This document shows, one piece after another, positions 9,323-60,640 of a DNA stretch of 64,000 nt. Made by a program: the position numbers and the translations under genes. Origin of the DNA: Candidatus Latescibacterota bacterium (GTDB lineage Bacteria; Latescibacterota; UBA2968; UBA8231); contig CBDAOB010000005.1 in NCBI GenBank assembly GCA_965197905.1, forward strand, positions 1,228,176 to 1,292,175, written 5' to 3'. Positions within the stretch are counted from its first letter, which is position 1. Each line of letters begins with the position of its first letter. The notes beneath the pieces were generated by a model, which ran no database searches, had not been told where the DNA came from, and worked only from the letters and a program-made list of their open reading frames with translations.

Positions 9323-11419
9323 TTGCCTTTCTGTCGGGATTTAATGTCGACGGTGTTAAATCTAAACACAAAGGTGATGTCCAACCATCGCGGGGATCTG
9401 AGCATGGAGGGTCTGCAAAGCCGTTTTGAAGATGTGGACAACGACGGGGACCGAGAGGTAGTGGTGCAGAATCGATGGATCCGCGTAGAGCTGCGCGTTC
9501 CCCAACATCTCGGATACTCGTTCTACAAGCGGCGCTTCACCTGGGGAGGCAGGCTGCAATCCCTGGTCTACAGACCGACAGGAACCGAATACTTTCTCAC
9601 CCGCATGATAGATTTGGAAGGCATCAACCCTTTCGGCCTTCCCGACGAGTTGTTCCAAAGCTTCGAGTTTGACGACTCAGACGGCGAAAAACGAATCTTG
9701 AAGATGGGCGTGGGCATCTTCCGCTCAAAGGTCGGCGAGGATGGTTTCGAACCGCTGCCGTGGAGCTGGTATCAGGAGGAGGACGGGGATGAGCTGGTTG
9801 TCGCCTTTCGCCAGGACGTACGCGATATAGGTCCTTACAGCTACGTTTACGAAAAACGATACCGGTTTCGTCCGGATGCCGCCTGGTTCGCCATGGATGT
9901 GACCCTCGAGAACCGCGGATCCGGCACCATCGCCACTTCCTGGGACATCCACTCCTTTCATAAAGCCGGAGTGCCACCGAACACGTCCTGGCTGGTTGCG
10001 CCGAAAAACTGCTGGTCCAGCTGCGGTACCAGCCGGGTTCGCACGACCCTCAAGGAAGCGAGTCCCATAATGGCCACTCCGGAGACTCGCGAGATGGTGT
10101 CCGATAGGATCGTTTGGGACACCGACGGAACGCCCTGGTGGTACGCGCTGGGGCCGGGCGACGGAGACGAATTCTATCTGCTGCGGGCGCGCTTCGAACC
10201 GTATTGGGGCATGTTCTGGGCGGGCTACGACGCGTTTACGCCGCAGGGGATCAACAACGTCGAGGTTCCGGCTGGCGATCGCGCCACCTGGGGATTTGAC
10301 GTGACGCTCGGAGTGGGCGGCCGAAACTTTGTTGCCGCCGCCGAGGATTCTGGTGTGACGATTGACCTGGATAGAGGCTCAGCAACGGTCTCCGTCCACG
10401 TGGCCTCCGAGCGCCAGGGAAAGCTGAGCGTTCAAGTGGCCGACCAGAGTGGACGATTACTCGCTCGCGAGCGCAGCGACAGGGCGGCACCGGAACGTCC
10501 GTTGACGTTGGATATAGACCTTCCCGATGAAGAGGACTTCTGCCAATTCGCCGTTACCTATGAAACTCCCTCGAGAATGCCGCTGCAGGTGGAAGAGATC
10601 CTGCCCCTGGGCCCGTCCCGACCCACCTCCCATTTGCCGTTCGACGCCAGTGGTACCCGCGTTTTCGTGGCCGTGAGCCACGAGCTCGATCATCCCGAAG
10701 CGGATGGCCGATACCTGTGGTGTCACGGCACCCAATCTGGTTTCGACGTTGACTGGCAAGGTAGTGGGCAAAGGATCCCGAGCGATATGACAGAGGTAGG
10801 TGTCGTCTGTCTGGTCGGCGACGCCTGGCCACCGACGGCGATCGACCGGCTCGTGCGATGGATTGAGTCTGGAGGGGGTCTGCTGCTGTGCGCCCCGTTT
10901 GGTGATCTTGCCTCCGGGCTTGGGTCGATCCTGCCAATGGTGCCCCTGGCAGCGCAGGACTCCGCGTTGCCCAGCACCCACGTCGTCCAGGGCACCGGGA
11001 TGCCGCGGTACTCCGAAGCGGAATGGCGGGCGACCGAGGTGGGCGGGGAACTTCAGTTCGAGCGCCGGATCCACTGGGGCATCGAAGAGGTTGCCCCGGT
11101 CGTTGGCTTGCAGGCGGGCACCCCGCACCTGGTGGCGCGGAACCTCATGCTGGAACCTGACGCCAAGGTTCGCATCGGCCATTGGCAAGTCTGCCAACCC
11201 GGCCCCGAGTGTATCGTGCCTTTGCGTTACACCGATCCGGCGGGTAGTCCCGCCGTAGGCCTGGGTCAGATTGGTCTAGGCCGGGTAGCGGTGGTGGCGA
11301 GTCGCCCGGCCTGGGGCTCGCACTACCACAAGGTCGTCTGGGATGGATGGGGACAGTACCACCGGGCGTTCTTTGCCGGCCTCATGGGTTGGCTCGCAGG
11401 TGTTTGGGAGGAAACATGA
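9323..11419 (+). CDS. large hypothetical protein (N-terminal mutarotase-like region; C-terminal ThuA/GATase1-like region?)
   Basis: 698-aa ORF. The start is uncertain (alternatives at 9377 and 9404). The C-terminal block VGVVCLVGDAWP...GGGLLLCAPFGD resembles class-I glutamine-amidotransferase-like folds. The stop overlaps the next gene (ATGA). Confidence 0.45.
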   Translation: MPFCRDLMSTVLNLNTKVMSNHRGDLSMEGLQSRFEDVDNDGDREVVVQNRWIRVELRVPQHLGYSFYKRRFTWGGRLQSLVYRPTGTEYFLTRMIDLEGINPFGLPDELFQSFEFDDSDGEKRILKMGVGIFRSKVGEDGFEPLPWSWYQEEDGDELVVAFRQDVRDIGPYSYVYEKRYRFRPDAAWFAMDVTLENRGSGTIATSWDIHSFHKAGVPPNTSWLVAPKNCWSSCGTSRVRTTLKEASPIMATPETREMVSDRIVWDTDGTPWWYALGPGDGDEFYLLRARFEPYWGMFWAGYDAFTPQGINNVEVPAGDRATWGFDVTLGVGGRNFVAAAEDSGVTIDLDRGSATVSVHVASERQGKLSVQVADQSGRLLARERSDRAAPERPLTLDIDLPDEEDFCQFAVTYETPSRMPLQVEEILPLGPSRPTSHLPFDASGTRVFVAVSHELDHPEADGRYLWCHGTQSGFDVDWQGSGQRIPSDMTEVGVVCLVGDAWPPTAIDRLVRWIESGGGLLLCAPFGDLASGLGSILPMVPLAAQDSALPSTHVVQGTGMPRYSEAEWRATEVGGELQFERRIHWGIEEVAPVVGLQAGTPHLVARNLMLEPDAKVRIGHWQVCQPGPECIVPLRYTDPAGSPAVGLGQIGLGRVAVVASRPAWGSHYHKVVWDGWGQYHRAFFAGLMGWLAGVWEET

Positions 11420-12711
11420 TCCGCCGGCGACATGGACTGTTGCTTCTCGCCATGCTTGCGCTTCAGGCTTCCGCCGGCGCGGAGTCCGAGGCGAGATTCG
11501 AATCACTCGGAGACTCGCTGGAAACCCTGCTGACCGACAACCTGATTCCGTTCTGGTATCCGGGCGTCGTCGATCTAGCCCGCGGCGGTTACAGATTGAA
11601 CCACGACAGCAGCGGGCGTTACCTGGGGCCTGCGGCGAAGCAGATCGAGAGTCAGGCGGGGACCTTGTGGTTCTTTGCACGTCTCGCCCGAAGTCCTTTC
11701 GGCACCGAGCAGCATCTTGCCGCCGCCCGGCACGGGTTTGAGTTCCTTCGGGATCGCATGTGGGACCGCGAGTTCGGAGGTTTCTTCTGGGAAATCGATT
11801 CGACGGCCGCGGTTGCCAGCAAACCCCACAAAGAGATCGGGGCGCAAGCCAGGGCACTTAACGCACTGTCCCAGTTCATTATGGCCACCGCCGACTCCAA
11901 CGCGTCGCAGCTTGCCTCAGCGCTGTTCCGGCGTTTGGAACAGCATGGTTACGATCGAATACACGGCGGGTATCGCGAATTCTTCCGACGCGATTGGGGC
12001 GCCATGCCAGACCAGATCAGGTCGTATTCGGGGTTGCGAACTGACGACAGATCGCTGCGGACTCATCTCCAACTCACCGAAGCCTTCGCGGCCTATTATC
12101 AGGTGACGGCGGACGAGCTGGTCCGCGATAGACTGATAGAGTTGATCCTGATACAGATCAACGCCATGGGTGATTCAAGCCTTACCTACGATCAAACCTG
12201 GCGGCCGCGCTCTGATCCTGAGAATCGGGTTCGCTCACCAGGTCATGACCTAGAAGCTATCTGGGTGGTCGCGGAGGCGTGCCGCGCGGCTGGTCTTCCT
12301 GTGTGTCCGTTCGTTCCCCGATTCTCTCGAGAAGTCAGCCACGCGATCGAACGCGGTTTCGATCGAACAGACGGGGGGTTCGTATCATTCGTGCCCGGTC
12401 GGGGCCAAACTGGACACAAGGTTTGGTGGCAACAGGCAGAGGGGTTGGTGGCCACGCTTTACCTCTACAATCTCACCGGCGAAGAGGATTATTTGAACGT
12501 CTTCGTGGGCACCCTTGGCTGGATTCTGAACGCTCAAGCGGATCGCCGACGCGGCGGGTGGCATGCGATAGTGGATCGGGAAGCAGCCCTTGAAGAGAAA
12601 AAGGCGAGTACCCGAAAAACGCCCTTCGAAACCGGCCGAGCCTTGTTTCGAACACTGGAGATCGTCGAGGTCCTAGGCCGGGATGGAACGCCAAGCGGCG
12701 CAAAACGGTGA
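11416..12711 (+). CDS. N-acylglucosamine 2-epimerase (AGE) superfamily protein, secreted
   Basis: The start is reassigned to MIRRRHGLLLLAMLALQASA (a signal peptide). AGE-like motifs LIPFWY, GGY, TLWFFARL and GGFFW are present. Confidence 0.55.
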   Translation: MIRRRHGLLLLAMLALQASAGAESEARFESLGDSLETLLTDNLIPFWYPGVVDLARGGYRLNHDSSGRYLGPAAKQIESQAGTLWFFARLARSPFGTEQHLAAARHGFEFLRDRMWDREFGGFFWEIDSTAAVASKPHKEIGAQARALNALSQFIMATADSNASQLASALFRRLEQHGYDRIHGGYREFFRRDWGAMPDQIRSYSGLRTDDRSLRTHLQLTEAFAAYYQVTADELVRDRLIELILIQINAMGDSSLTYDQTWRPRSDPENRVRSPGHDLEAIWVVAEACRAAGLPVCPFVPRFSREVSHAIERGFDRTDGGFVSFVPGRGQTGHKVWWQQAEGLVATLYLYNLTGEEDYLNVFVGTLGWILNAQADRRRGGWHAIVDREAALEEKKASTRKTPFETGRALFRTLEIVEVLGRDGTPSGAKR

Positions 12712-12772
12712 TTTTCGAGGCAATGTGACCGCATTCAGGCCCCGTGGCAAACCGCGCATAATCAATTTGCGA

Positions 12773-12801
12773 TTGACAGGTCCGGACTTTGTAAGTATTA
12801 A
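12773..12801 (+). promoter_or_regulatory. sigma70-like promoter (TTGACA, 17-bp spacer, TATTAA) in an AT-rich island
   Basis: Read directly: TTGACA at 12773-12778, a 17-nt spacer, TATTAAT at 12796-12802. It sits about 100 nt upstream of the cNMP/REC gene. Confidence 0.4.
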
Positions 12802-12902
12802 TTAATAATACACTAACGACGAAACAACAGACATTCCTGCCGCGGAATTTTCACTTATTCAGAGCTCCCCGCGGTCGGCAAGCGCGACGGAAAGCACCCT
12901 AG

Positions 12903-13865
12903 ATGGCACCGCCAGCCAGCGATAGTCTAATCAAGGTAATAGGCAAGATTCCTCTTCTCAGGGGTCTGTCACCCACCCAGCTACGTTCGATCATCGGAAT
13001 CTGCGAGCATCGAGTTTTGAACGAGGGGGAGCTGCTTTGCAAGGCAGATTCGGCCGCCGACGAGATGTACATCCTGGTCGCAGGCGAATGTGGCCTTGTG
13101 GGAACGGAAAGCGAGATCATCAAGGAGATTGCTCCGGTTTCGACGGTTGGAGATGCGTCGCTACTAACCGGCGTCGGGCACCCAGCTAACATCCGGGTGT
13201 CGAAGCAAAGCCATATCTTCGCCCTGACCAAGTTCCAGCTAGACCGAACGCTGAGGCGCGACCTGGATATGCAGGTCAAAATCTATCGGAACCTGAGCGA
13301 AACTCTGGCTTCCTCTATGGGAAACGAGGAAACCCTGCTCGAGGTGAACAAGAAGGAGAAGGACCGGTACGAGGTGCGTATCGCTTCCCTCGAGCGCCAA
13401 CTCGGGAATCACACCCGCAAGATCGACCTGGTCTTGGAACTGCTCGGGTCGCGTGCGGAGATGTCGAAGGACGAGGTCGATCTATATCTGCAGGAAAGGT
13501 TGAAAGACCTCGTGCCGCGGATTCTCGTGGTGGACGACGAAGCGGATTTTCGGCGATTTGCCAAGGAGGCTCTCGACTCCTTCTCCGTTTTGGAGGCCCA
13601 GAGCGGGAAAGAGGCCCTTCAGATCGTGCGCGAGGAACAGTTCGATCTGGTCATCGCCGACATCCGAATGCCCGAGATGGACGGATACTCGTTGCTGGCC
13701 AATCTGCGTACCTATTCACCGAACCTGCGGGTCGTGGCTGTGTCGGGTTACCTAGGGACCGAGGAAATCAGCGATTATGAATTCAATGGGTTCATCGATA
13801 AACCGATGGGGCCAGAACGTCTTCAGGAGGTGGTCGAAGCAACCCTCAAGCAGAACTACAATTGA
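12903..13865 (+). CDS. cyclic-nucleotide-binding domain / coiled-coil / C-terminal receiver (REC) domain protein
   Basis: The N-terminal 130 aa look like a cNMP-binding (CAP effector) domain. A central charged coiled-coil follows. The C-terminal REC has VVDDE...DLVIADIRMPEMDG with the conserved Asp. Confidence 0.7.
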   Translation: MAPPASDSLIKVIGKIPLLRGLSPTQLRSIIGICEHRVLNEGELLCKADSAADEMYILVAGECGLVGTESEIIKEIAPVSTVGDASLLTGVGHPANIRVSKQSHIFALTKFQLDRTLRRDLDMQVKIYRNLSETLASSMGNEETLLEVNKKEKDRYEVRIASLERQLGNHTRKIDLVLELLGSRAEMSKDEVDLYLQERLKDLVPRILVVDDEADFRRFAKEALDSFSVLEAQSGKEALQIVREEQFDLVIADIRMPEMDGYSLLANLRTYSPNLRVVAVSGYLGTEEISDYEFNGFIDKPMGPERLQEVVEATLKQNYN

Positions 13866-13943
13866 GGAAGGTAAGCGTACCTTCGATCAGGACTCCCAGA
13901 AGCCCCAACCACTGAGCTGTACTCACAGCAACTCGATAGACAG

Positions 13944-15977
13944 ATGAAGTACCTGCTCACCGGAGGAGGTACGGGCGGTCACGTCTACCCGGCCCTGGCG
14001 CTCGCAGACGAGATCGCAGCTCGCCAACCTGCGGCCTCCTTCTTATACGTCGGCTTGGCAAGCAAGCTGGAAGCGTGGGTTGTCCCCAAGCGTGGATTCC
14101 CCATAAAGTTTGTGCGTTCTCGCTCCTGTCCCAGATCCACATCACCCTGGTCCTGGCTCGTCTTTTCTTTGACCCTGGCCGTCGGAATCCTACAGGCCTC
14201 CCTACTACTGCTGCGCTACAGGCCACATCTGATCTTAAGCACGGGTGGCTACGTAAGTGCTCCGATAATGTTTGCGCACGGAATCCTCAAGAACATCGGC
14301 TGTTCACGCAGCAAGGTGTTTATCTTCGAGCCAAACGCCCATCCAGGGATGTTGAACCAGGCCGCCGGCAGGATGGCAGATCGAATTGGGGTCGCCTTTG
14401 AACAGGCGGGTCGATGGTTCGACATGCGGCGGGTCGCAGTCGTCGGCTATCCCGTGCGGCGCGAGGTGTTGGCGTCGGATCGCGCGGTGGCCAGGAAGCG
14501 GTTTGGTATCCCACCGGAAGCGCCCGTCGTACTCGCATTTGGCGGATCGGGCGGGGCGCGGGCAATCAACGAAGCGGTGATCGATTCGCTGCCGCACCTT
14601 CTTTCCCGCCCCGAGCTCCATCTGATACACATCACCGGTCAGTACAAAGGTGCAGACTATGACGCCGTGGCGGAAACGGCGGCGCGACTGGAGACTCTCT
14701 CTCTAGCTCCGAACCGCGCGGACAGATACCACCGTTTCTCCTACATGGAAACGATTCAAGACGCCTATTCTGCCGCCGACCTGGCAATCTGCCGCGGCGG
14801 CATGGGCGCGCTTACCGAGATTGGCGTCTGCGGGTTGCCGTCCGTGATCATCCCATTGCCGTCCGCTGCTGAGGACCACCAGGCGATGAACGCGCGGGAG
14901 ATGGAGAGAGCAAACGCGGCGCAGGTGATCTACGAAGAGGCATCGTGGCGCGAGGGCAAGATTTTCAGTCGTGTCGACGGCAAGCGCCTGGCGGCGAAAG
15001 TCACCGCACTGATAGACGACCGCGAGAAGCGCGTCGCCATGGGCAAGGCTGCTGCTACGCTGCCGCACAAGAACAGCCTCGATCTGATGCTTGCAGAGAT
15101 CGAGAATCTCATTTTGGGGCGCCGGCCAGCACCTCTCACCTTAGAGTTTCCCGTTCGTGCGAAGTCGGTGCCTGAAGACCCCAATGCGCTGTTGCGCTGG
15201 GTGAGTCAGCGTATCGACGAAAGCAATGACGTCAATGGCTTGGATCCGCGGGAATTGGCTTATCTGCGCCATCACGCGGACCGATTGTTGGTTTCCTCGG
15301 CATGGTACGAGACCCCGCTGGGCAGGCGGAATGTGGGGATCAAGCTGGTGGGCTACCTCCAGTATGTCGAGCATGTGCCGCTACTGCTGAGCATTCTGCA
15401 GGATCGAACCAGGGTTGGCCCGCTCAAGCGGCTGTTCGGAGGGGATTTTGTCCACGGTGGGTTCCTGCGGCGCAACGCCATCGAATTCGGGATTCGTAAG
15501 TTGGGTGTAGCGGACGAAACGGTAAAGGACGCGTTGATTCTCGCGTTGCGCGAGGATCCGTATTTTGAGGTGCGGGCTGTGGCGGCCAGAGCGCTGGGAG
15601 AGTTTATGGGCCCGTGCGTCGAGCTGGAAGAGCGCTTGGTCGAGGCGCTGGACGATCCCTATCCCGAAGTGGTCATCGAAGTGATTGGAGCCCTCGGCTC
15701 GATCGCTCGTCACGAGAAGGTCCTCGAGCACTTGCAAAGATTTTATTTGCACGACAGTTGGCAGATTAGACAGCGGGTAGTTGCTGTGCTCGCGCAGCTT
15801 CTCGAGCGCCGCCTCGTAGATCTAGATGAGGTGGCGAAAAGCGCTGATCAAATTCTAATGACGTCCCCTTTCTTCAGTCCCCGTTTTCCCCTCAAACAGC
15901 AGCTGGACTCTCTATTCCAACAGCTTGAACGCGCTTCCGCGAGCCGGGAAAATCAACGGCACACTGCGGAACAGTGA
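13944..15977 (+). CDS. murG: MurG-like GT28 glycosyltransferase fused to a C-terminal PBS-lyase-type HEAT-repeat domain
   Basis: GGGTGGHVYPALALA G-loop at the N-terminus and a GT28 C-terminal half to about residue 390. At least three 'D..EVRAVAARALGE' HEAT-like repeats follow. The stop overlaps the mraY start. Confidence 0.65.
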   Translation: MKYLLTGGGTGGHVYPALALADEIAARQPAASFLYVGLASKLEAWVVPKRGFPIKFVRSRSCPRSTSPWSWLVFSLTLAVGILQASLLLLRYRPHLILSTGGYVSAPIMFAHGILKNIGCSRSKVFIFEPNAHPGMLNQAAGRMADRIGVAFEQAGRWFDMRRVAVVGYPVRREVLASDRAVARKRFGIPPEAPVVLAFGGSGGARAINEAVIDSLPHLLSRPELHLIHITGQYKGADYDAVAETAARLETLSLAPNRADRYHRFSYMETIQDAYSAADLAICRGGMGALTEIGVCGLPSVIIPLPSAAEDHQAMNAREMERANAAQVIYEEASWREGKIFSRVDGKRLAAKVTALIDDREKRVAMGKAAATLPHKNSLDLMLAEIENLILGRRPAPLTLEFPVRAKSVPEDPNALLRWVSQRIDESNDVNGLDPRELAYLRHHADRLLVSSAWYETPLGRRNVGIKLVGYLQYVEHVPLLLSILQDRTRVGPLKRLFGGDFVHGGFLRRNAIEFGIRKLGVADETVKDALILALREDPYFEVRAVAARALGEFMGPCVELEERLVEALDDPYPEVVIEVIGALGSIARHEKVLEHLQRFYLHDSWQIRQRVVAVLAQLLERRLVDLDEVAKSADQILMTSPFFSPRFPLKQQLDSLFQQLERASASRENQRHTAEQ

Positions 15978-17089
15978 CCGCTGTGATCTACTATCTAGGC
16001 ACATACCTATACGACACGGTGGAAGCGCTCTCCTTCCTGCGCTTGCTCAACTCGATCAGTTTTCGAGCGATTGCCGGGGCGATTACGGCGTTGTTGTTTA
16101 CCATTCTGTTTGGCGATCGCATCATCCTCTATTTCTATCGTTCCGGCCAGCGCGACACCCCGCGAAATTACGCCAGCTTCTCTACCGAGGGGGACTCCGC
16201 CAAAACCTACGGCGGTGGACTTATCGTTACCGGCATACTTCTGAGCGTCATTTTGTGGACGAAGGTCCACACTACGTTCGTGCTGCTGTGTATCGGAGCG
16301 GTTCTGTGGTTCGCGGCCTTGGGTCTAATCGACGACAGATTGAAGGTGCGGCATGGCAGCAGCGATCGCGGTCTTTCGGAGGCGGCCAAGCTGGTCCTGC
16401 AGTCAGTCTACGGCCTCGCTTTTGGCCTGATCTATGTAATCGAGGAACTCTCGCCTTTGCCGACGGGCTTGGCAACGCAGTTGTATCTCCCATTCGTCAA
16501 GAATCCAATTGTCGATCTCTCCTGGGGATACGTCCCTTTCGTAATCTTCACAGTGATCGCGATTGCCAACTCGGTCAATATCGCGGACGGAATTGACGGT
16601 CTTGCGGTGGTGCCGGTGGCGTTCGCCATCGCGGTTTTCGGAGTTTTTGCCTACGTTGCGAGCCACGCAGAGATATCGGATTTCCTGATCTTTCCGTTCA
16701 TGCCGGGCGTCGGGGAGGTGGCCATTATCTGTTCTGTCGTGTTCGGGGCCTGTTTGGGATTTCTCTGGTTCAATTCCTACCCCGCCAATGTCATTATGGG
16801 CGATACCGGCTCGATGGCGCTCGGCGGGCTCCTCGGGACAGCCGCGGTTCTTGTCAAACAGGAGTTCCTGTTTCTCATCGTCGGGGGGATCTTTGTGGGG
16901 GAGGCGTTTTCCGTCCTGGTGCAAGAAAAAATCGGCATCAAATGGCTGGGCAGACGATTCTTCCAGCGGGCACCGATTCACCATCATTTCCAGTCTCGTG
17001 GTCTCGCCGATACCAAAATCGTTATTCGGTTCTGGATCATCGCCGGCATCTTGGCGCTGTGCAGCCTGGCAACATTGAAGATTCGATAA
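15974..17089 (+). CDS. mraY: phospho-N-acetylmuramoyl-pentapeptide transferase-like polyprenyl-phosphate glycosyl-1-phosphate transferase (MraY/WecA family)
   Basis: About 10 TM helices, GLIDDRLKV, NSVNIADGIDGLA and VGGIFVGE motifs. It is overlap-coupled to murG. Confidence 0.7.
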   Translation: MTAVIYYLGTYLYDTVEALSFLRLLNSISFRAIAGAITALLFTILFGDRIILYFYRSGQRDTPRNYASFSTEGDSAKTYGGGLIVTGILLSVILWTKVHTTFVLLCIGAVLWFAALGLIDDRLKVRHGSSDRGLSEAAKLVLQSVYGLAFGLIYVIEELSPLPTGLATQLYLPFVKNPIVDLSWGYVPFVIFTVIAIANSVNIADGIDGLAVVPVAFAIAVFGVFAYVASHAEISDFLIFPFMPGVGEVAIICSVVFGACLGFLWFNSYPANVIMGDTGSMALGGLLGTAAVLVKQEFLFLIVGGIFVGEAFSVLVQEKIGIKWLGRRFFQRAPIHHHFQSRGLADTKIVIRFWIIAGILALCSLATLKIR

Positions 17090-17203: not shown

Positions 17204-17680
17204 TCAGAGAACGTTTAATCCGTAGATACACAACAAGACGACCACGATACCCATGGTGACACTGATCCAAATCGGGATCGGAGCCGCCTTGTTTCCGTAA
17301 TGTTCTACGGAATACCGGTTGTACTCCCGGGAGATCAGCATGTAGGCGGAGACAATCGAGCTGATAATCGCCACGATCAGGAATACAATGCCCATCTGTT
17401 CCGGTGCGAAGGTGCGGCTCAGGGTAAGCGCGTAGGAAATCACGTTCACCAGGAGTCCAAATTCGCGCGACACTAATCCGTAGATGACAATGCCGAGACT
17501 GAAGGAACTAATGGTGAGAGTGGCAAGACCACTCAGAATGGGTAGCTGGAAGAATGCGATCAGGACCAGACTGCCGATCAGAAGGTGAACCCACATCCCG
17601 GCGTAGGCATAGAAAAACGCCGGTCGCTCCAAAGAGGCTTGACCGACGAGATATTGGGAAAAGGTCGGGCGTTTGGTCAC
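17204..17680 (-). CDS. small polytopic membrane protein, hypothetical
   Basis: 158 aa with 4-5 hydrophobic helices, downstream of the PilZ gene on the same strand. Confidence 0.45.
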   Translation of the reverse strand: MTKRPTFSQYLVGQASLERPAFFYAYAGMWVHLLIGSLVLIAFFQLPILSGLATLTISSFSLGIVIYGLVSREFGLLVNVISYALTLSRTFAPEQMGIVFLIVAIISSIVSAYMLISREYNRYSVEHYGNKAAPIPIWISVTMGIVVVLLCIYGLNVL

Positions 17681-17784: not shown

Positions 17785-18594
17785 CTAAGCGGCGTTGGCC
17801 AGAGGACACTCCGAAGTTTCCAACCCTTTGCCGATGGTGTCGCGTTCCAGGAAGCGCACCAGGTTATAGCAGCTTTCTTGTGGTTCGTTGAAGGAGACGG
17901 CGAGGGCGTACACCGGGCCGCGTCCATCGGTTGTCTGCAACCGACAGTTGACGATGCGGGCTTCTATCGCCTCCAAACCGTAGCGAATATCACGTTCTGC
18001 TCCGTTAGAGAGGTTGGTACCTGCCATCGACGGTCGGGTGAATCGACCACGTTTGGCCGTTCTGCGACGGACCGCCTGCTCCACGTACTCTTCAGGTGCG
18101 GACAGGGTGAGGCGCAACGATTTCGATGCCGGGATCTGGCGCACGAACACCTGAGCGCCACCGCCACTGAGGTTGGTGACCACGGCCGGTTTCGAAAGTG
18201 TCACTCCCGGTCTCGCGGTTTCCTCCCACTCCGCCAACGCTTTAAGGGTTACAGCAACTCGATAGGAGCCGCGACGCTGGTGCCCGTCAATGGTTCGAGG
18301 TAGCTTCAGCAGCAACACGGGCACTCGATCATGCAATCGCCGGCGTCCGAATATTTCGCTGGAGAAGGAGTAGTCCTTAGGGCTCTTTGGCAACGCCCGG
18401 ACGGTGACCGAGGCGCCCCGAGGGGGACTCAAATCGGCGGGGGCGTCAACGCACAAATACCCGTCGGAGCTCAGATCCTGAATGCGCCCCAGGTGCTGCG
18501 AGGCGGAGATTTCCGGATCGTCAAAAGAGAGCAGGAAACGTTCGCCAATCTTTAGGCCATCCGGAAGCCGGTGGCCATTCTGTGTCTTAGCCAT
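17785..18594 (-). CDS. PilZ-domain c-di-GMP-binding protein (YcgR-like two-domain architecture)
   Basis: RRxxxR (QRRGSYR) and N.SGGG (NLSGGGAQVF) PilZ signature pair. The start is reassigned to MAKTQ, with AAGGAGA 8 nt upstream. Confidence 0.6.
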   Translation of the reverse strand: MAKTQNGHRLPDGLKIGERFLLSFDDPEISASQHLGRIQDLSSDGYLCVDAPADLSPPRGASVTVRALPKSPKDYSFSSEIFGRRRLHDRVPVLLLKLPRTIDGHQRRGSYRVAVTLKALAEWEETARPGVTLSKPAVVTNLSGGGAQVFVRQIPASKSLRLTLSAPEEYVEQAVRRRTAKRGRFTRPSMAGTNLSNGAERDIRYGLEAIEARIVNCRLQTTDGRGPVYALAVSFNEPQESCYNLVRFLERDTIGKGLETSECPLANAA

Positions 18595-18614
18595 GAGTGA
18601 ATCTCCTTGACAAA

Positions 18615-18641
18615 AGTGATCACGTATCAAAGTGATCGTAT
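18615..18641. promoter_or_regulatory. direct repeat AGTGATCACGTAT / AGTGATCGTAT containing the palindrome GTGATCAC; candidate operator
   Basis: Read directly from the sequence, immediately upstream of the PilZ gene RBS on the minus strand. Confidence 0.3.
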
Positions 18642-25202: not shown

Positions 25203-26330
25203 ATGACTGAATCCCTGGTGTCACCCTCCGAGTTTGTAGGACTAGACGGGGTGACACACCTGTGCACTGGGGGCGAAGCGCCGTGGCTGAAGCGTTTCGA
25301 CACCGTTTACCAACAGTTTTCCACCTGTAAGAGCGCCGGCGCGAAAGGTCGGCGCCAGATATTCGATCGGGTTTCCGCCTGTCGAAACAAGATGGCCGAT
25401 CTGTGGAATGTGCCTGCGGATCGGATCGGGTTCATGCTCTCGGCGGCTGAAGGGATGAACTGGCTGGCGCGGGGTCTCGAACTGCGATCGGGAGATAACA
25501 TCGTTACCACACGCATGGAGTTTCCGTCGGTGGCCTACGCCTGGCGTTCGGCGCGGGAGAGTGGGGTAGAGATACGCATGGTGGCGCATCGGAACTGGGT
25601 CGTGGAGGAAGAGGAATTGATCGCGGCTATCGATTCCAGGACGCGGGTGTTGGCGGTAAGTCAGGTGAGTTTCTATTCCGGTCAGTGTTTGGATATTCTC
25701 CGTCTTTCCGAGGCGACGAGAAGACAAGGTGCTCTGTTGGCGGTGGACGCCACCCATGCTTCGGGTGTCGTGCGGGTACCCGCCGAACTTACCGACCTTT
25801 GTGTGACCAGCTGTTACAAGTGGATGCTGGCGACCCACGGGCTGGCACCCTGCTACTTGAGCACCAGGGCCGAGGAGGTGGCCGAGGCGACGAGCTTCGG
25901 CTGGCACAACCTGGAGGTCTGGGAACGAAACACCTACGACTGCAAGCCAGAGGTGGCCGCCAAGCCGATGCCCGATCTTCTGGAACCGGGCAACCCTGCT
26001 CTAATCGTGATCATGTTTCTCGAGCGAGCCCTCGACCTGATGCGAGATCTGGGCATCGAGCGTATAGAAGGCCATGCCAGGGAGCTGGCGGCGCGTACCA
26101 GTGCAGGCCTCAAGGATTTGGGGCGGGTCGTGATTTCTCCAGAGGAGCAACCCAGGCGGTCTGGGAATACCTGCTTCGTCGATGAACGGGCCGAGCATTT
26201 GGTGGCGCAGCTAGCAGCGCAGCGCATTCTGGTTTGGGGTGAGATGGGACGAGTGCGCATATCAACCCACGTCCACAACAACGCTGACGACGTGGATCGT
26301 TGCCTGCGCGCTCTTCGAGGGCTGGGATAA
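25203..26330 (+). CDS. class V aminotransferase / cysteine-desulfurase-like PLP enzyme
   Basis: Class V fold pattern (DATHASG...SCYKW lysine region) and a 375-aa length. Confidence 0.7.
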   Translation: MTESLVSPSEFVGLDGVTHLCTGGEAPWLKRFDTVYQQFSTCKSAGAKGRRQIFDRVSACRNKMADLWNVPADRIGFMLSAAEGMNWLARGLELRSGDNIVTTRMEFPSVAYAWRSARESGVEIRMVAHRNWVVEEEELIAAIDSRTRVLAVSQVSFYSGQCLDILRLSEATRRQGALLAVDATHASGVVRVPAELTDLCVTSCYKWMLATHGLAPCYLSTRAEEVAEATSFGWHNLEVWERNTYDCKPEVAAKPMPDLLEPGNPALIVIMFLERALDLMRDLGIERIEGHARELAARTSAGLKDLGRVVISPEEQPRRSGNTCFVDERAEHLVAQLAAQRILVWGEMGRVRISTHVHNNADDVDRCLRALRGLG

Positions 26331-28014
26331 TCTCCTTTTGGCTGGCCCGAGCCGCACCAGATGGAGATGGATCTCGTCGCTGCTGCTGGTTGCCGGAGCG
26401 TCTGTCTGGATCCTGTTCGCCCTTTGGGGTGAGGATCTGGTGCGCTCAATCTACGCCGCCGCCGCCCCCGCTGAGTTTCTGAACGGCCTCATAAAGAGAC
26501 AGTCCGTACATCGGGTCGACTACTACCTGAACAGGGGGTGGACGGCGGCGCGGGGCATGGCCTGGTTGATGTGGAGCGCCGCTGCCTTGATAGCGCTCTA
26601 CCAAACTCTGCTGGCTACCGGGTTGTTTCGGCGGCGGAATCCGCCGCTTTTGGTGGCGATCGTGTTCGCGACAATCCTGGTGTGCGAGTCGTACGTTCTC
26701 GGCGTTCCGATTTTTCAGCTACTGCCCCACTGGTTCTGGTCTCTGCGCCTCAAGGAGCTCGGGAACTGGTGGCTTCTTTTCCCGCTCGCAGCGGTCCTGT
26801 GGGGCACCTTGCACCAGATATTTAGTGGGCCGGCAAGAAACAAGCGCAATCTGCTGCTCCTCATCCTGACAGGAACCCTGGTGCAGTACGGGATCGTCGC
26901 GATGGAAGGCAATGCCCTTGACGGCTTGCGGCATCGGTTGCTGGATACCGGGCATGGTGGATTCCCGCGGCTCGCGTCCGATCAGATAAGCCTCCTTCGA
27001 GTCGTCGCCGGTTACGACGACATGCTGGCCGCGGGCCAACTGGCGGATTATCCGTTTGGCACCAAACCACCCGGTGTGCTTGTTTTCTTCGTCCTTTGCG
27101 CACGACTGGCGGATATGCTCCAGTTTTCCGGAACGAACCTGGAGCAGCTATCGACGCTTGCCACGTTGCTGTTTCCCGTCTTTACCTACCTGGCGCTGGT
27201 ACCACTGTTTATGGTTTGCCGGCAGTACGTTGGCACGAAAGAATCCTGGGTGCCCTGCTGCCTATACATTGCGCTTCCCAATCTCGTGCTGATGAATATG
27301 CATCTGGATCAGTTTCTGTTGCCCCAGCTGGGACTCTGGTTCGCTCTGACAATGGTCCTCGCGCACCGACGGGGGAGTGCGCTGGGCGGCGTGTTCAGCG
27401 GGGTCCTGCTTTATGTCTGTCTGTTTGTCTCGTTTTCGTTAATTGCGCTGGTCGCCCTGATTCCCGTCATCCTGATCGTGCGTGGCCCCGGTCGTTCAAA
27501 CGCTACCAGGATGTTGGGCTACCTGATCTTTGGGTTTGTGGCTTCGTATGGCCTGCTTTATGCCATCGCCGACTACAGCGCAGTAGATCGTTTTTTCGCG
27601 GCCATCGGCCGGCATTCACAATGGAAGGTAGAGACCTGGGGTATTCTCACCGTTGTCTATTTCGCCATCCTGAACACGGTGGAGTTCGCACTTTGGTGCG
27701 GCGTGCCGGTTGCTATTCTATGCGGGGCCGAGCTGTATCGTTCGGCTCGGATCATGTGGACCACCAGACAAGTGGCGGAGGAGGGCACCTTAGGTGTTGC
27801 TCTTCTAGCCACTGGAGGGTTCCTGCTTATGTTCGGGAGAACTGTAGGCGAGACCGGCCGACTGTGGATCTTCCTGGCGCCGCTGGTGGCGTTTTGCGCT
27901 GCGGCCACGTTGAACAGATTGATGCCTGATCGCCTTTTGGCGGGGACTGCGGCAACGGTCACATTGCAGATGGCCGTCGTTCTCACCCTCAAGCGACACC
28001 AGGATTTCTTTTGA
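26239..28014 (+). CDS. polytopic membrane protein, GT-C-like glycosyltransferase candidate (start uncertain, probably a non-ATG codon after 26330)
   Basis: More than 12 hydrophobic helices. The ORF overlaps the upstream gene by 90 nt, so the true start is likely downstream. The stop overlaps the next gene (ATGA). Confidence 0.45.
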   Translation: MRWDECAYQPTSTTTLTTWIVACALFEGWDNLLLAGPSRTRWRWISSLLLVAGASVWILFALWGEDLVRSIYAAAAPAEFLNGLIKRQSVHRVDYYLNRGWTAARGMAWLMWSAAALIALYQTLLATGLFRRRNPPLLVAIVFATILVCESYVLGVPIFQLLPHWFWSLRLKELGNWWLLFPLAAVLWGTLHQIFSGPARNKRNLLLLILTGTLVQYGIVAMEGNALDGLRHRLLDTGHGGFPRLASDQISLLRVVAGYDDMLAAGQLADYPFGTKPPGVLVFFVLCARLADMLQFSGTNLEQLSTLATLLFPVFTYLALVPLFMVCRQYVGTKESWVPCCLYIALPNLVLMNMHLDQFLLPQLGLWFALTMVLAHRRGSALGGVFSGVLLYVCLFVSFSLIALVALIPVILIVRGPGRSNATRMLGYLIFGFVASYGLLYAIADYSAVDRFFAAIGRHSQWKVETWGILTVVYFAILNTVEFALWCGVPVAILCGAELYRSARIMWTTRQVAEEGTLGVALLATGGFLLMFGRTVGETGRLWIFLAPLVAFCAAATLNRLMPDRLLAGTAATVTLQMAVVLTLKRHQDFF

Positions 28015-29618
28015 CGGGAGTGATGGAGGACAACATTTCGTTCAAGACCGTAGCCTTGACTACCGGACTGGCCACTGTGGGCGTCGCGTCCCTGTTTCGC
28101 TACGCCGAACTGCAGCACGGTGCTGGCATGCCTCTGGATGACTCATGGATCCACTTGCAATTCGCGCGCAATCTCGTCGAGGGGAACGGCTTCGCCTTCA
28201 ATCCGGGCGAGACGACGGCGGGTTCGACGGCTCCGCTGTGGACCCTCTCGCTTGCCGCACTGATGCTGTTGCCCTGGGACATCCTTGGTTCGGTCAAGGT
28301 GTTCGGCATTCTACTTCATTGGGCGAGTTCCGTGTTGGCCGTTCGCCTGGCTCGCAGCCATGGGTTGGAAGCTCCATGGGCCCTCCTGGTCGGTCTCGTA
28401 GTGGCGACAACCCCCAGGCTCGTCTGGGGAGCGCTTTCGGGGATGGAGATCCCGCTGTACCTGCTGCTGTCGACCGCGGGACTTTGCTTTCACGTTGAGT
28501 GCATCGGTCGTTCGCCGTCGATCTTGGGCACTATGCTGGTGGCATTAGCAGTGCTGGCGCGCCCGGAGTGTCTCATTCTTTTCCCGCTCTGTCTCATCGA
28601 CAGGTGGCGTTTCGATCGTTCCCAGGATCATCGGCGAATGAACCTCAGGCACGGTCTGCTCTACGCCGCCATCATGGCGCCATCGATTGTCTTCAATCTG
28701 CTCGTCTCCGGCAATCCGCTTCCCAACACCTACTACGCCAAGGTGGGTGGTTACGGATTACTGCAGGCGATCGCCGCAGCTGATATGACGCAGGTGGGAA
28801 AAGCGCTGGTTGTCTATCCGTTGATTCAGGCTCGCGAGCTGGGTCGGTTCGCGGTGGAGAACAGTCTTTTCGTGAGCATGGCCTGCCTCCTGGGTTTCCT
28901 GGAGCTGCTGCGTCGCGATCGAACTGAGAACGGGAAGTTGTCATGGATCATCCCGCTCGTCCTCGTGGCGTTTCCGCTGGTCCGCGGGGCAGTCGCCCCG
29001 TTCAAGGGAGCGTTATTTCAGCACGGTAGGTACGCGGCTTTTCTCGTGCCGCTAATCACGGTTGCCGGAGTACTGGGTTTACGGAGCCTGTTCGAGGTTC
29101 TCGCTCACGGCCGCTCCGGCAAGCAACTCCAGCTCCTGCGGCAATGGGCCATTCCCGCCGTCGTAGGTCTACTAGTGCTCGAGCTGGCCGTCGCCAACAT
29201 CAAATACGCCCGCACCTACGCACGCAACGTGGCCAACATCAACGCCACTCACGTGAAAATGGGGCAGTGGCTGGCCAGCAATACGCCAGCGGACGCCGTC
29301 GTTGCCACCCATGACATCGGCGCCGTTGGATTCTTCTCGAATCGGTATCTGTACGATACTACCGGCTTGATAACGCCGACTGTTCTGGACTACCTGCCGA
29401 AAGGACGACCAGCGGACAAGGGCGTCGCCCGCTTTCTGCGCGATAAGAAACCCGACTACCTCGTGCTGATCCCCAGCTGGTACCCGACCTTGACCCGAAG
29501 AATCGGAGGGATTCAAGCGGTATTTTCGATCAATGTCTCCGACAACACGGTGGTCGCCGGGGACCGGTTCGTCGCCTATCGACTACCCTGGTCCTCGCTG
29601 CCCCCGGATGGTCCGTAG
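28011..29618 (+). CDS. polytopic membrane protein, GT-C/PMT-like glycosyltransferase candidate
   Basis: An N-terminal loop DDSWIHLQFARNL after TM1 (a DE/DD-type motif as in ArnT/PMT). Many TM helices and a C-terminal soluble domain. Confidence 0.5.
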   Translation: MTGVMEDNISFKTVALTTGLATVGVASLFRYAELQHGAGMPLDDSWIHLQFARNLVEGNGFAFNPGETTAGSTAPLWTLSLAALMLLPWDILGSVKVFGILLHWASSVLAVRLARSHGLEAPWALLVGLVVATTPRLVWGALSGMEIPLYLLLSTAGLCFHVECIGRSPSILGTMLVALAVLARPECLILFPLCLIDRWRFDRSQDHRRMNLRHGLLYAAIMAPSIVFNLLVSGNPLPNTYYAKVGGYGLLQAIAAADMTQVGKALVVYPLIQARELGRFAVENSLFVSMACLLGFLELLRRDRTENGKLSWIIPLVLVAFPLVRGAVAPFKGALFQHGRYAAFLVPLITVAGVLGLRSLFEVLAHGRSGKQLQLLRQWAIPAVVGLLVLELAVANIKYARTYARNVANINATHVKMGQWLASNTPADAVVATHDIGAVGFFSNRYLYDTTGLITPTVLDYLPKGRPADKGVARFLRDKKPDYLVLIPSWYPTLTRRIGGIQAVFSINVSDNTVVAGDRFVAYRLPWSSLPPDGP

Positions 29619-34140: not shown

Positions 34141-35031
34141 TCAACCGGGTCCTGTACTCTGGCGTAGCAGCTGTTCCAGATAGTGCCGGTAGTCGCAATC
34201 GGGAATCTTTTCCGTTAACGACTGGAGGGCCGCTTCGTCGATGAACTCCTGTTTGTACGCGATTTCTTCCAGACAAGCTATCTTCAGTCCCTGACGTTTC
34301 TCTATTGCTTCGATGAACGAATTGGCCTCCTGCAGGCTTGACGGAGTGCCGGTGTCCAGCCATGCCGTCCCGCGGCCTAGGCGTTCGACTCTTAGGCGAC
34401 TCGATTCCAGATAAGCGCGGTTGACGTCGGTGATTTCCAGCTCGCCGCGAGCCGACGGATTCAAGGCGCGGCAAACTCGGCACACCTCCTGGTCGTACAC
34501 GTAGAGTCCCGGCACCGCATAGTTCGACTTGGGCGTTGCCGGTTTTTCTTCGATGCCCACCACGTTTGATTGTTGATCAAACTCGATGACGCCGAAATCC
34601 TGCGGGTTGCTGACGTAATAACCGAAAATGAGAGCGCCGTCCGAGAAACTTTTCAGGGCTTCGGAAAACCCTCCCTCGCGGTAGAAATAGTCGCCGTAGA
34701 AGACATTGTCTCCCAGAATCAGCGTGATGGCGTCGCCGGCGATAAACTCTTCGGCAAGAAGAAAGGCCTGGGCGATACCTTCGGGACGCGGCTGAACCTC
34801 GTAACAAACCCGCAAGCCCAAATCGCTGCCATCGCCGATGAACTCCCGCAACACGGGTACATCCTTGGGTGTCGAGATGATACAGATATCCCTTATCCCG
34901 CCCAACATCAACGTCGAAAACGGATAGCAGATCATCGGCTTGTCGTACACCGGAACCAGTTGCTTACACACAATTCGGGTCAGCGGGTATAGTCGGGAGC
35001 CAGTGCCGCCCGCCAATACGATGCCTTTCAT
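34141..35031 (-). CDS. rfbA: glucose-1-phosphate thymidylyltransferase
   Basis: The N-terminus MKGIVLAGGTGSRLYPLT and the overall RmlA pattern. Confidence 0.85.
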   Translation of the reverse strand: MKGIVLAGGTGSRLYPLTRIVCKQLVPVYDKPMICYPFSTLMLGGIRDICIISTPKDVPVLREFIGDGSDLGLRVCYEVQPRPEGIAQAFLLAEEFIAGDAITLILGDNVFYGDYFYREGGFSEALKSFSDGALIFGYYVSNPQDFGVIEFDQQSNVVGIEEKPATPKSNYAVPGLYVYDQEVCRVCRALNPSARGELEITDVNRAYLESSRLRVERLGRGTAWLDTGTPSSLQEANSFIEAIEKRQGLKIACLEEIAYKQEFIDEAALQSLTEKIPDCDYRHYLEQLLRQSTGPG

Positions 35032-59996: not shown

Positions 59997-60033
59997 CTTT
60001 CTGGCGTCGTTAAGTAAGTTAACGTTTACTATC

Positions 60034-60639: not shown

Positions 60640-60640
60640 G

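What the first reader, a model, noticed from the sequence alone, without database searches (positions are those of the whole stretch)
12903..17089. cNMP-binding/receiver hybrid regulator upstream of a MurG::HEAT-repeat fusion coupled to an MraY-like transferase
The cNMP-domain plus coiled-coil plus C-terminal REC architecture has no output domain. This suggests a protein that integrates a cyclic-nucleotide signal with a phosphorelay. It has a strong promoter and a 100-nt leader. Immediately downstream, a MurG-type GT28 carries a roughly 290-aa PBS-lyase HEAT-repeat extension, and it is overlap-coupled to an MraY/WecA-family transferase. No dcw neighbours (murD, ftsW, murC) are present. A MurG-HEAT fusion is an unusual architecture. 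The pair could be a second, regulated lipid-linked disaccharide synthesis module, or a scaffolded lipid II synthase.
Basis: partly seen in the sequence, partly recalled or inferred. Interest (0 to 1): 0.55.

Follow-up and report, generated by a model that had tools for sequence, protein, structure and literature searches.

The report
MurG–HEAT/MraY cell-wall precursor cassette
Two enzymes that build the membrane-bound peptidoglycan precursor (MraY and MurG) are encoded here as a coupled pair outside the usual cell-wall gene cluster, and MurG carries a conserved helical-repeat domain that, across at least four bacterial phyla, always sits just in front of mraY and is sometimes also fused to the precursor flippase MurJ, so it looks like an undescribed adaptor holding these enzymes together.

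Summary
The window encodes a cNMP-like/coiled-coil/receiver protein (12903-13865), a MurG with a ~290-aa HEAT-type extension (13944-15977), and a bona fide MraY (15974-17089) joined to murG by a GTGA start/stop overlap. No dcw gene occurs anywhere in the 64 kb.

The organism is a Latescibacterota (WS3) bacterium. The fusion is not a one-off. Hundreds of ~670-aa orthologues exist, and more distant versions occur in cultured Desulfacinum infernum and Thermodesulforhabdus norvegica, in Electryoneota and in Planctomycetota. The same module also occurs as MurJ-MurG-HEAT, as MurG-MurJ-HEAT and as a stand-alone ~295-aa protein.

In every context examined mraY follows immediately (73 of 73 metagenome loci with downstream sequence, plus about 35 other loci). 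dcw genes are never nearby. The module carries a family-specific invariant signature.

The upstream cNMP/REC gene is not part of the conserved unit. It is absent from most relatives, internally deleted in the closest one, and has lost the cyclic-nucleotide-binding arginine.

Best reading: this is the MraY/MurG pair in a dcw-independent cassette, with the solenoid acting as an MraY-associated adaptor. I could not test whether a second murG/mraY exists elsewhere in the genome.

The parts
12763..12816 (+). Conserved promoter-like block (TTGACA 12773-12778, 17-nt spacer, TATTAA 12796-12801), followed by a ~100-nt leader. It may serve the whole cNMP/REC-murG-mraY transcription unit.
   Evidence: Sequence read. 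83% identical in L002 and retained in L001, even though the downstream cNMP/REC gene is deleted or decayed there. Not called by the strict consensus scan. No Rfam element in the leader.
12903..13865 (+). cNMP-binding-like domain, coiled-coil linker and C-terminal receiver (REC) domain, with no output domain. A lineage-specific accessory neighbour.
   Evidence: Pfam hits. REC residues D211, D212, D253, S281 and K300 are conserved, but the PBC is degenerate (HPAN instead of PRSA). Adjacent to murG::HEAT only in some lineages. Deleted in L001.
13944..15095 (+). MurG catalytic part (GT28, GT-B fold), residues 1-384 of the 677-aa protein.
   Evidence: Pfam PF03033 and PF04101. TIGR01133 scores 213.6 bits (cutoff 250.25). 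Aligns to P. aeruginosa and E. coli MurG with GGTGGH, GGSGGA, LTE and EDHQAxNA conserved. Foldseek top hits are MurG 1f0k, 1nlm and 3s2u, TM 0.72-0.85.
15096..15179 (+). Linker (residues 385-412) containing the conserved LEFP...DPN motif. Predicted coil.
   Evidence: Alignment A1. AlphaFold secondary structure and lower pLDDT in this stretch.
15180..15977 (+). C-terminal alpha-solenoid (HEAT-type) module, residues 413-677, with the family-specific signature W454...RN463xGVK467, R496..GGD501..GF507xRRN511, DPY540xE542xR, E575, R609, R622 and F648.
   Evidence: HEAT_2. About 14 helices, pLDDT 82.5. Foldseek and profile hits to alphaRep, PP2A-A and CpcE cover only the central repeats. 20 residues are invariant across 15 proteins from all architectures and phyla.
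15974..17089 (+). MraY (phospho-MurNAc-pentapeptide translocase, lipid I synthase), translationally coupled to murG::HEAT by a GTGA overlap.
   Evidence: TIGR00445 scores 270 bits, above the 192 cutoff. Full-length alignment to solved MraY structures at E 1e-71, with the DD, NxxNxxDGxDGL and PIHHH motifs present. Overlap shown. 72-97% identical across Latescibacterota loci.
17204..17680 (-). 158-aa multi-pass membrane protein of unknown family, convergent with mraY. A conserved neighbour within Latescibacterota only.
   Evidence: No Pfam or NCBIfam hit. Syntenic in 19 of 21 Latescibacterota loci. Absent from cassettes of other phyla.
17785..18630 (-). PilZN+PilZ (YcgR-like) putative c-di-GMP receptor. 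A conserved neighbour within Latescibacterota only.
   Evidence: Pfam PilZ and PilZNR. Synteny.

Best explanation
The pair encodes the lipid I synthase MraY and the lipid II synthase MurG of this Latescibacterota bacterium. They form a translationally coupled two-gene cassette that lies outside any dcw cluster. This cassette is conserved across at least four phyla.

Its hallmark is a family-specific HEAT-type alpha-solenoid of about 230-270 residues, whose constant genomic partner is mraY. The module can be a separate protein, the C-terminus of MurG (as here), or the C-terminus of MurJ-MurG or MurG-MurJ fusions.

The most likely mechanism is inferred, not shown. The solenoid is a cytoplasmic adaptor that docks on MraY. 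It thereby holds MurG, and in some lineages the flippase MurJ, next to MraY. Lipid I would then be converted to lipid II and handed to the flippase within one complex. This would replace the co-ordination that dcw-cluster organisation or the divisome provides in other bacteria.

The upstream cNMP-like/REC protein is a dispensable, lineage-specific neighbour. At most it is co-transcribed from the same promoter.
For: Enzyme identity:
- MraY passes the NCBIfam equivalog cutoff (270 vs 192 bits). It aligns end to end with solved MraYs, with catalytic motifs intact.
- MurG retains the G-loops and the UDP-GlcNAc-binding motifs, and its model superposes on solved MurG.

Cassette conservation:
- murG::HEAT followed by mraY is seen in 20 of 21 Latescibacterota genome loci (L021 is cut inside murG).
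- It is seen in Desulfacinum infernum with a 4-bp overlap and in Thermodesulforhabdus norvegica.
- It is seen in a Planctomycetota MAG as MurG-MurJ-HEAT followed by MraY, and as MurJ-MurG-HEAT followed by MraY.
- It is seen unfused as murJ, murG::HEAT, mraY with 4-bp overlaps.
- In the metagenome survey, MraY follows the module in 73 of 73 loci that have downstream sequence.
- A stand-alone HEAT ORF directly upstream of mraY, with no MurG, occurs in L046 and L048. It forms its own ~295-aa family. This makes MraY the invariant partner.

Constraint on the module:
- Within the family the extension is as conserved as the catalytic half.
- 20 residues are invariant across all architectures.
- The full-length model has pTM 0.84, implying a defined inter-domain arrangement.

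No dcw genes lie within +-8-10 kb of any cassette (with a positive control on canonical loci).

The organism makes peptidoglycan: an L,D-transpeptidase is encoded at 38946-40715.

MraY is the slowest-evolving gene of the neighbourhood (72-97% identity, against 51-83% for RecG).
Against: - No physical interaction was tested or modelled, because no multimer prediction was available. Adjacency and fusion are indirect evidence.
- I could not scan any carrier genome for a second, canonical murG/mraY. 'Housekeeping and sole copy' is therefore inferred.
- MurG scores below the TIGR01133 equivalog cutoff (213.6 vs 250.25 bits).
- HEAT solenoids are generic binders. The partner could be something other than MraY, such as MurF, MreB or a regulator.
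- The 80 metagenome loci are the best-scoring subset of 349 and include near-duplicates.
Confidence: 0.6

Rival explanations
1. The cassette is a second, conditionally used lipid-linked disaccharide module that exists alongside a canonical dcw mraY/murG. It is controlled by the upstream cNMP/REC protein, which integrates a cyclic-nucleotide signal with a phosphorelay.
For: The cassette is outside any dcw cluster. cNMP/REC followed by murG::HEAT followed by mraY is conserved in one marine sub-lineage at about 48% identity. No terminator separates the REC gene from murG. Alternative MurG paralogues do exist elsewhere, for example MurG2 in PMC8092295.
Against: The regulator is absent from most carrier loci. 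It is internally deleted in the closest relative, and a homologue is located elsewhere in another lineage. Its PBC lacks the cNMP-binding Arg. MraY is equivalog-grade and very strongly conserved. The cassette is repeatedly fused or coupled to the normally essential flippase MurJ. The cassette occurs in Planctomycetota, where dcw clusters are eroded and murG, mraY and murJ are dispersed single genes.
Confidence: 0.12
2. The enzymes are the housekeeping MraY and MurG, but the solenoid does not dock on MraY. Instead it recruits another partner (the cytoplasmic Mur ligases such as MurF, an MreB/FtsA-type cytoskeleton, or a PG synthase complex), or it acts as a ligand-sensing regulatory domain of MurG.
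For: HEAT/alphaRep-type solenoids are generic protein-binding scaffolds. In E. coli, MurG is reported to interact with Mur ligases (PMC10214165). The invariant Arg, Asn, Asp and His-rich loop motifs could form a small-molecule or peptide-binding site.
Against: The only invariant genomic partner of the module is mraY, including in lineages where the module is a separate ORF with no murG nearby. No Mur ligase or cytoskeletal gene is ever adjacent.
Confidence: 0.22
3. The pair makes a non-peptidoglycan lipid-linked glycan, in the manner of WecA/WbpL with a GT28-like transferase, and is only superficially MraY/MurG-like.
For: MurG is below its equivalog cutoff. The cassette lacks dcw context.
Against: MraY is above the TIGR00445 cutoff. 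It matches solved MraYs at E 1e-71 over the full length and has the MraY-specific motifs. The best structural matches of the GT are MurG itself. Fusion and coupling with the lipid II flippase MurJ.
Confidence: 0.04

Closest known systems
Canonical MurG (E. coli / P. aeruginosa; PDB 1F0K, 1NLM, 3S2U) and MraY (A. aeolicus 4J72, E. coli 8G01) encoded in the dcw cluster
   Same: Same folds and catalytic motifs. These are consecutive membrane-associated steps (lipid I, then lipid II).
   Different: Here the gene order is murG then mraY, overlap-coupled, with no murD/ftsW between them and no dcw genes nearby. MurG carries a ~290-aa conserved C-terminal solenoid that is absent from all characterised MurGs.
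Natural Mur chimeras (MurE-MurF, MurC-Ddl, MurC-MurB, MurG-MurC, MurD-FtsW, MraY-MurG; PMC10214165)
   Same: Gene fusions within the peptidoglycan precursor pathway, interpreted as evidence for multi-enzyme complexes.
   Different: The fusion partner here is not another pathway enzyme but a dedicated helical-repeat module. MurG-HEAT, MurJ-MurG-HEAT and MurG-MurJ-HEAT are not among the chimera types listed in that survey.
MurG2 of Kitasatospora/Streptomyces (PMC8092295)
   Same: A MurG-type lipid II synthase encoded outside the dcw cluster.
   Different: MurG2 is an additional paralogue alongside a dcw murG. It has no HEAT module and is not coupled to mraY. Here nothing indicates a second copy, though this was not tested genome-wide.
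PBS-lyase/HEAT-like repeat proteins (CpcE/F, NblB, YibA; alphaRep designs)
   Same: The central repeats of the module match HEAT_2 and these structures.
   Different: There is no functional relationship: NblB scores 26 bits against a cutoff of 300. The N-terminal part of the module, with the W..RNxGVK and GGDF..GFxRRN motifs, has no counterpart in them.
CAP/Crp-type cNMP-binding domain fused to CheY-like receiver (stand-alone response regulators without output domain)
   Same: The domain composition of the upstream protein. The REC phospho-acceptor pocket is intact.
   Different: The phosphate-binding cassette lacks the conserved Arg, so cAMP/cGMP binding is doubtful. The gene is dispensable in close relatives.

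Membership tests
MraY (TIGR00445, phospho-N-acetylmuramoyl-pentapeptide transferase) | Score above the curated equivalog cutoff | tested here: met
   270 bits against a cutoff of 192.05
MraY (TIGR00445, phospho-N-acetylmuramoyl-pentapeptide transferase) | Catalytic Asp pair, NxxNxxDGxDGL and HHH motifs; full-length 10-TM architecture | tested here: met
   LIDDRLK, NSVNIADGIDGLA and PIHHHF align with solved MraYs over residues 5-371 at E 1.4e-71
MraY (TIGR00445, phospho-N-acetylmuramoyl-pentapeptide transferase) | Lipid I synthase activity | not testable with these tools
   Requires biochemistry or complementation
MurG (GT28; TIGR01133) | Score above the curated equivalog cutoff | tested here: not met
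   213.6 bits against a cutoff of 250.25. Both Pfam GT28 halves are well above their cutoffs.
MurG (GT28; TIGR01133) | GT-B fold with G-loop 1 (GGTGGH), G-loop 2 (GGS) and the UDP-GlcNAc-binding helix (TxxE, HQxxNA) | tested here: met
   Motifs are conserved in alignments to 3S2U and 1F0K and invariant in the family. Foldseek TM 0.72-0.85 to MurG structures.
MurG (GT28; TIGR01133) | Location in the dcw cluster between ftsW and murC | tested here: not met
   No dcw genes in the 64-kb window or near any of more than 100 cassette loci
MurG (GT28; TIGR01133) | Only MurG of the genome (housekeeping role) | not tested
HEAT repeat / PBS-lyase HEAT-like | Pfam HEAT_2 above gathering score and an alpha-solenoid fold | tested here: met
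   50.8 bits against 27.7. The model has about 14 helices. Foldseek and profile hits to alphaRep, PP2A-A and CpcE.
HEAT repeat / PBS-lyase HEAT-like | Membership of a phycobilin-lyase/NblB functional family | tested here: not met
   NblB scores 26.2 bits against a cutoff of 300
cNMP-binding (CAP/Crp effector domain, PF00027) | Domain score above the Pfam gathering threshold | tested here: met
   38.2 bits against 27.5
cNMP-binding (CAP/Crp effector domain, PF00027) | Phosphate-binding cassette with GE...(P)R[ST]A arginine | tested here: not met
   The window has VGDASLLTGVGHPANIRV. Distant homologues keep VGEMGVITGQPRSATVEA.
Response regulator receiver (PF00072) | Acidic pocket DD, phospho-acceptor Asp, Ser/Thr and Lys | tested here: met
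   D211, D212, D253, S281 and K300 are invariant or nearly invariant in A2. Pfam E 3.4e-23.
MurG2-type alternative lipid II synthase | Exists in addition to a dcw-encoded murG | not tested
   No whole-genome search was possible

The most novel reading that the evidence does not exclude
The HEAT-type solenoid is an obligate, previously unrecognised third component of a MraY-MurG(-MurJ) 'lipid II synthasome'. It physically bridges lipid I synthesis, lipid II synthesis and flipping. Whole lineages in at least four phyla (Latescibacterota, Electryoneota, Thermodesulfobacteriota, Planctomycetota) would then have moved their only mraY/murG out of the dcw cluster into this self-contained cassette.
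Probability: 0.35. Interest if true: 0.8.

Novelty: new variant of a known kind. Interest (0 to 1): 0.6.

Why it matters
Whether MraY, MurG and the flippase MurJ work as one physical complex is a long-standing question in cell-wall biology. It has mostly been addressed by indirect interaction data in E. coli.

Natural MurJ-MurG and MurG-MurJ fusions, and a conserved adaptor-like module that is always encoded immediately upstream of mraY, make the question directly testable. Two carriers are cultured thermophiles (Desulfacinum infernum and Thermodesulforhabdus norvegica), whose proteins should suit co-purification and cryo-EM.

There is also an annotation consequence. These MurGs fall below the NCBI equivalog cutoff and are named only 'glycosyltransferase', so automated reconstructions may wrongly report MurG as missing in these phyla. 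The cassette also adds a case of dcw-cluster break-up outside the PVC group.

Tried and rejected
- **Whole-genome check for a second mraY/murG.** Not possible. The single genome-contig scan went on finding relatives, and context look-ups give only +-10 kb.
- **Literature.** No paper on MurG-HEAT or on MurG-MurJ fusion. The Latescibacteria genome paper does not discuss peptidoglycan genes. The dcw survey by Megrian et al. is not in the library.
- **Riboswitch or known RNA in the leader.** None at E<=1.
- **Intrinsic terminator between the REC gene and murG, or after mraY.** None convincing.
- **PBS-lyase function for the extension.** Rejected: NblB scores 26 bits against 300, and only generic HEAT fold matches were found.
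- **Inter-domain contacts.** Model coordinates are not exposed, so I could not say where the solenoid packs on MurG.
- **TM158, PilZ and RecG as functional partners.** Their synteny is confined to Latescibacterota and includes the unrelated recG, so it is better explained by shallow conserved gene order.
- **Cassette MraY as a divergent paralogue.** Cross-phylum identity among cassette MraYs (43-48%) is only modestly above identity to Bacteroidota dcw MraYs (33-35%). This is not decisive either way.

Full report
**1. What is in the sequence**

ORF 12903-13865 (320 aa) has a cNMP_binding domain at residues 37-119 and a receiver domain at 207-311. A helical linker joins them and there is no output domain.

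ORF 13944-15977 (677 aa) has both halves of GT28 (MurG) followed by a HEAT_2 hit at 529-616 (E 2e-13, above the gathering score).

ORF 15974-17089 (371 aa) is a GT4-family polyprenyl-phosphate transferase. It scores 270 bits on the NCBIfam MraY equivalog model, whose cutoff is 192.

The murG stop and the GTG start of mraY overlap as GTGA. A 78-nt gap without a terminator separates the REC gene from murG.

Pfam scans of essentially all long ORFs of the 64-kb window found no dcw gene. tblastn with Mur ligases, FtsW, FtsA, FtsZ and MurB was also negative. The window does encode an L,D-transpeptidase at 38946-40715, so the organism makes peptidoglycan.

**2. Enzyme identity**

MraY aligns over its whole length with solved MraY structures at E 1e-71. 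The Asp-Asp, NxxNxxDGxDGL and PIHHH motifs are present.

The N-terminal 384 residues of the fusion align with P. aeruginosa and E. coli MurG, with GGTGGH, GGSGGA, LTE and EDHQAxNA conserved. The AlphaFold model has pLDDT 87.1 and pTM 0.84. Solved MurGs are its best structural matches, with TM 0.72-0.85.

MurG falls somewhat below its NCBIfam equivalog cutoff (213.6 vs 250.25 bits). This explains why NCBI names these proteins only 'glycosyltransferase'.

**3. Organism and family**

Genome hits identify the lineage as Latescibacterota (WS3, Handelsmanbacteria-type MAGs). The closest is chromosome OZ244235.1 at 89% identity.

The fusion has hundreds of ~670-aa orthologues at 54% identity or more, all with the same architecture.

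In 21 Latescibacterota genome loci the order murG::HEAT, mraY, a 158-aa membrane protein (opposite strand), a PilZ protein (opposite strand), recG is largely conserved. MraY is the most conserved gene at 72-97% identity.

**4. The upstream cNMP/REC gene is not part of the conserved unit**

Most loci have unrelated genes upstream of murG::HEAT.

In the closest relative (L001) the gene carries two internal deletions, corresponding to window 12976-13601 and 13773-13939. The promoter-like block is retained.

L002, L011 and L020 hold only remnants. A 251-aa cNMP-only version sits on a 526-kb contig.

About 50 full-length homologues exist. In one marine sub-lineage the gene is still adjacent to the cassette. 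In another lineage a homologue lies at an unrelated locus.

Alignment shows that the REC phospho-acceptor pocket is intact. In the murG-linked subfamily, however, the phosphate-binding cassette has lost the PRSA arginine that distant members keep. A cyclic-nucleotide input is therefore doubtful, and the protein is dispensable.

**5. The C-terminal module is the interesting part**

Within the family it is as conserved as the catalytic half.

Searched alone against 1.84 billion representatives, it hits 163 clusters at E<=1e-10. Pfam scans of these hits show several architectures:
- more distant MurG-HEAT proteins of 650-780 aa
- triple fusions MurJ-MurG-HEAT (1219 aa)
- triple fusions MurG-MurJ-HEAT (about 1300 aa)
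- HEAT-only proteins

Named carriers include:
- cultured Desulfacinum infernum (WP_084076270.1)
- cultured Thermodesulforhabdus norvegica (WP_093395533.1), Thermodesulfobacteriota
- Ca. Hatepunaea meridiana, Electryoneota
- a Planctomycetota MAG
- Latescibacteria MAGs

**6. mraY always follows the module**

This holds in D. infernum (4-bp overlap), T. norvegica, the Planctomycetota MurG-MurJ-HEAT, MurJ-MurG-HEAT, two further distant MurG-HEAT loci, a split MurG / HEAT / MraY locus, and an unfused murJ, murG::HEAT, mraY operon with 4-bp overlaps.

A metagenome scan with a profile of the module found 349 relatives. Among the best 80 loci:
- MraY follows the module in 73 of 73 loci that have downstream sequence.
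- MurJ lies directly upstream in 14.
- A MurG domain is present in 75. Two loci lack it despite ample upstream sequence, and three are too short upstream to judge.
- No Mur ligase, FtsW, FtsA, FtsZ or MurB lies within +-8 kb in any locus.

The same queries detect these genes in canonical clusters of three other phyla, which serves as a positive control.

The two loci that lack a MurG domain despite ample upstream sequence (L046, L048) encode the module as a stand-alone ORF immediately before mraY. This stand-alone form is a family of about 290-297-aa proteins, including one from a Latescibacteria MAG. MraY, not MurG, is therefore the invariant partner of the module.

**7. Nature of the module**

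Modelled alone it is an all-helical solenoid of about 14 helices (pLDDT 82.5). It resembles designed alphaRep binders, PP2A-A, CpcE/F and YibA. These matches cover only the central repeats.

Aligning 15 proteins from all architectures gives 20 invariant residues: W454, N463, K467, G470, R496, G499, D501, G506, F507, R509, R510, N511, D538, Y540, E542, E575, R609, R622 and F648, plus L449. The signature is W..RNxGVKxxG, R..GGD[FY]..GF[IV]RRN and DPY[FY]ExR. It is far more specific than generic HEAT repeats and has no solved or curated counterpart.

The topology is consistent. Both termini of MurJ are cytoplasmic (established knowledge of MurJ topology), so the module is cytoplasmic in every fusion order.

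**8. Interpretation**

Shown:
- The enzymes are MraY-type and MurG-type.
- They form a translationally coupled, dcw-independent cassette conserved across phyla.
- A constrained solenoid module is always encoded immediately upstream of mraY and is variably fused to MurG and MurJ.

Inferred:
- The module is an adaptor that docks on MraY and tethers MurG, and in some lineages MurJ, so that lipid I, lipid II synthesis and flipping are coupled.
- These are the only mraY and murG copies of the carriers.

The second inference is favoured by equivalog-grade, slowly evolving MraY. It is also favoured by coupling to the normally essential MurJ, and by the presence of the cassette in Planctomycetota, where dcw clusters are eroded. 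It was not tested, because no whole genome could be searched.

**9. Comparison with what is known**

The survey of natural Mur chimeras lists MurE-MurF, MurC-Ddl, MurC-MurB, MurG-MurC, MurD-FtsW and MraY-MurG. It lists no fusion to a repeat module or to MurJ.

MurG2 of actinomycetes is a dcw-external MurG, but it is an extra paralogue without these features. Full-text searches found nothing on MurG-HEAT or MurG-MurJ.

I therefore rate this as a new variant of a known kind. The enzymes are familiar, while the accessory module and the cassette organisation appear undescribed.

**10. Verdict**

Interest is 0.6. The window's gene pair is itself one ordinary member of a large family. The family-level pattern, however, gives a concrete and testable handle on the proposed MraY-MurG-MurJ complex.

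Noticed in passing
window 17204-17680 (-) and 17785-18630 (-): A 158-aa multi-pass membrane protein with no family hit and a PilZN+PilZ (YcgR-like, putative c-di-GMP receptor) protein are syntenic with the cassette in nearly all Latescibacterota loci. They are not found next to cassettes of other phyla.
   Followed up: partly
window 12903-13865; L001 5452-6001; L002, L011, L020: The cNMP/REC gene shows repeated independent decay: two deletions in L001, short remnants in L002, L011 and L020, and a 251-aa cNMP-only version (P0123) on a 526-kb contig. The promoter-like block upstream is retained in L001 and L002.
   Followed up: yes
L032 10001-12169 (Desulfacinum infernum): The Desulfacinum MurG-HEAT has an extra N-terminal hydrophobic helix (MDILLISLLGVLAVLLAAGVL...). 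This suggests a membrane anchor that the window protein lacks.
   Followed up: no
L037 1-3292: MurG (404 aa, cut by the contig end), a separate 335-aa HEAT ORF overlapping it by 34 nt, then MraY. This is either a genuine split of the fusion or a frameshift in the assembly.
   Followed up: no
L046 4950-9786; L035 12939-13604; window 38946-40715: YkuD-type L,D-transpeptidase genes recur near the cassette: two lie directly upstream of the stand-alone HEAT-MraY pair in L046. The window's copy carries a 'Scaffold' domain.
   Followed up: no
window 9323-11419, 26239-28014, 28011-29618, 35028-37910: Large ORFs (698, 591, 535 and 960 aa) without any Pfam hit. The 698-aa one is conserved in L001 and L002, and its start overlaps the end of the divergent PhoX gene.
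   Followed up: no
window 58857-63924: A sugar-modification cluster: DegT-type aminotransferase, TetR regulator, PIG-L deacetylase and GT4/GT1 glycosyltransferase. It is unrelated to the cassette.
   Followed up: no
window 11347-12711: A GlcNAc 2-epimerase-family (AGE) protein with a signal-like N-terminus lies upstream. It recurs upstream of the cassette in several Latescibacterota loci at 42-46% identity.
   Followed up: partly
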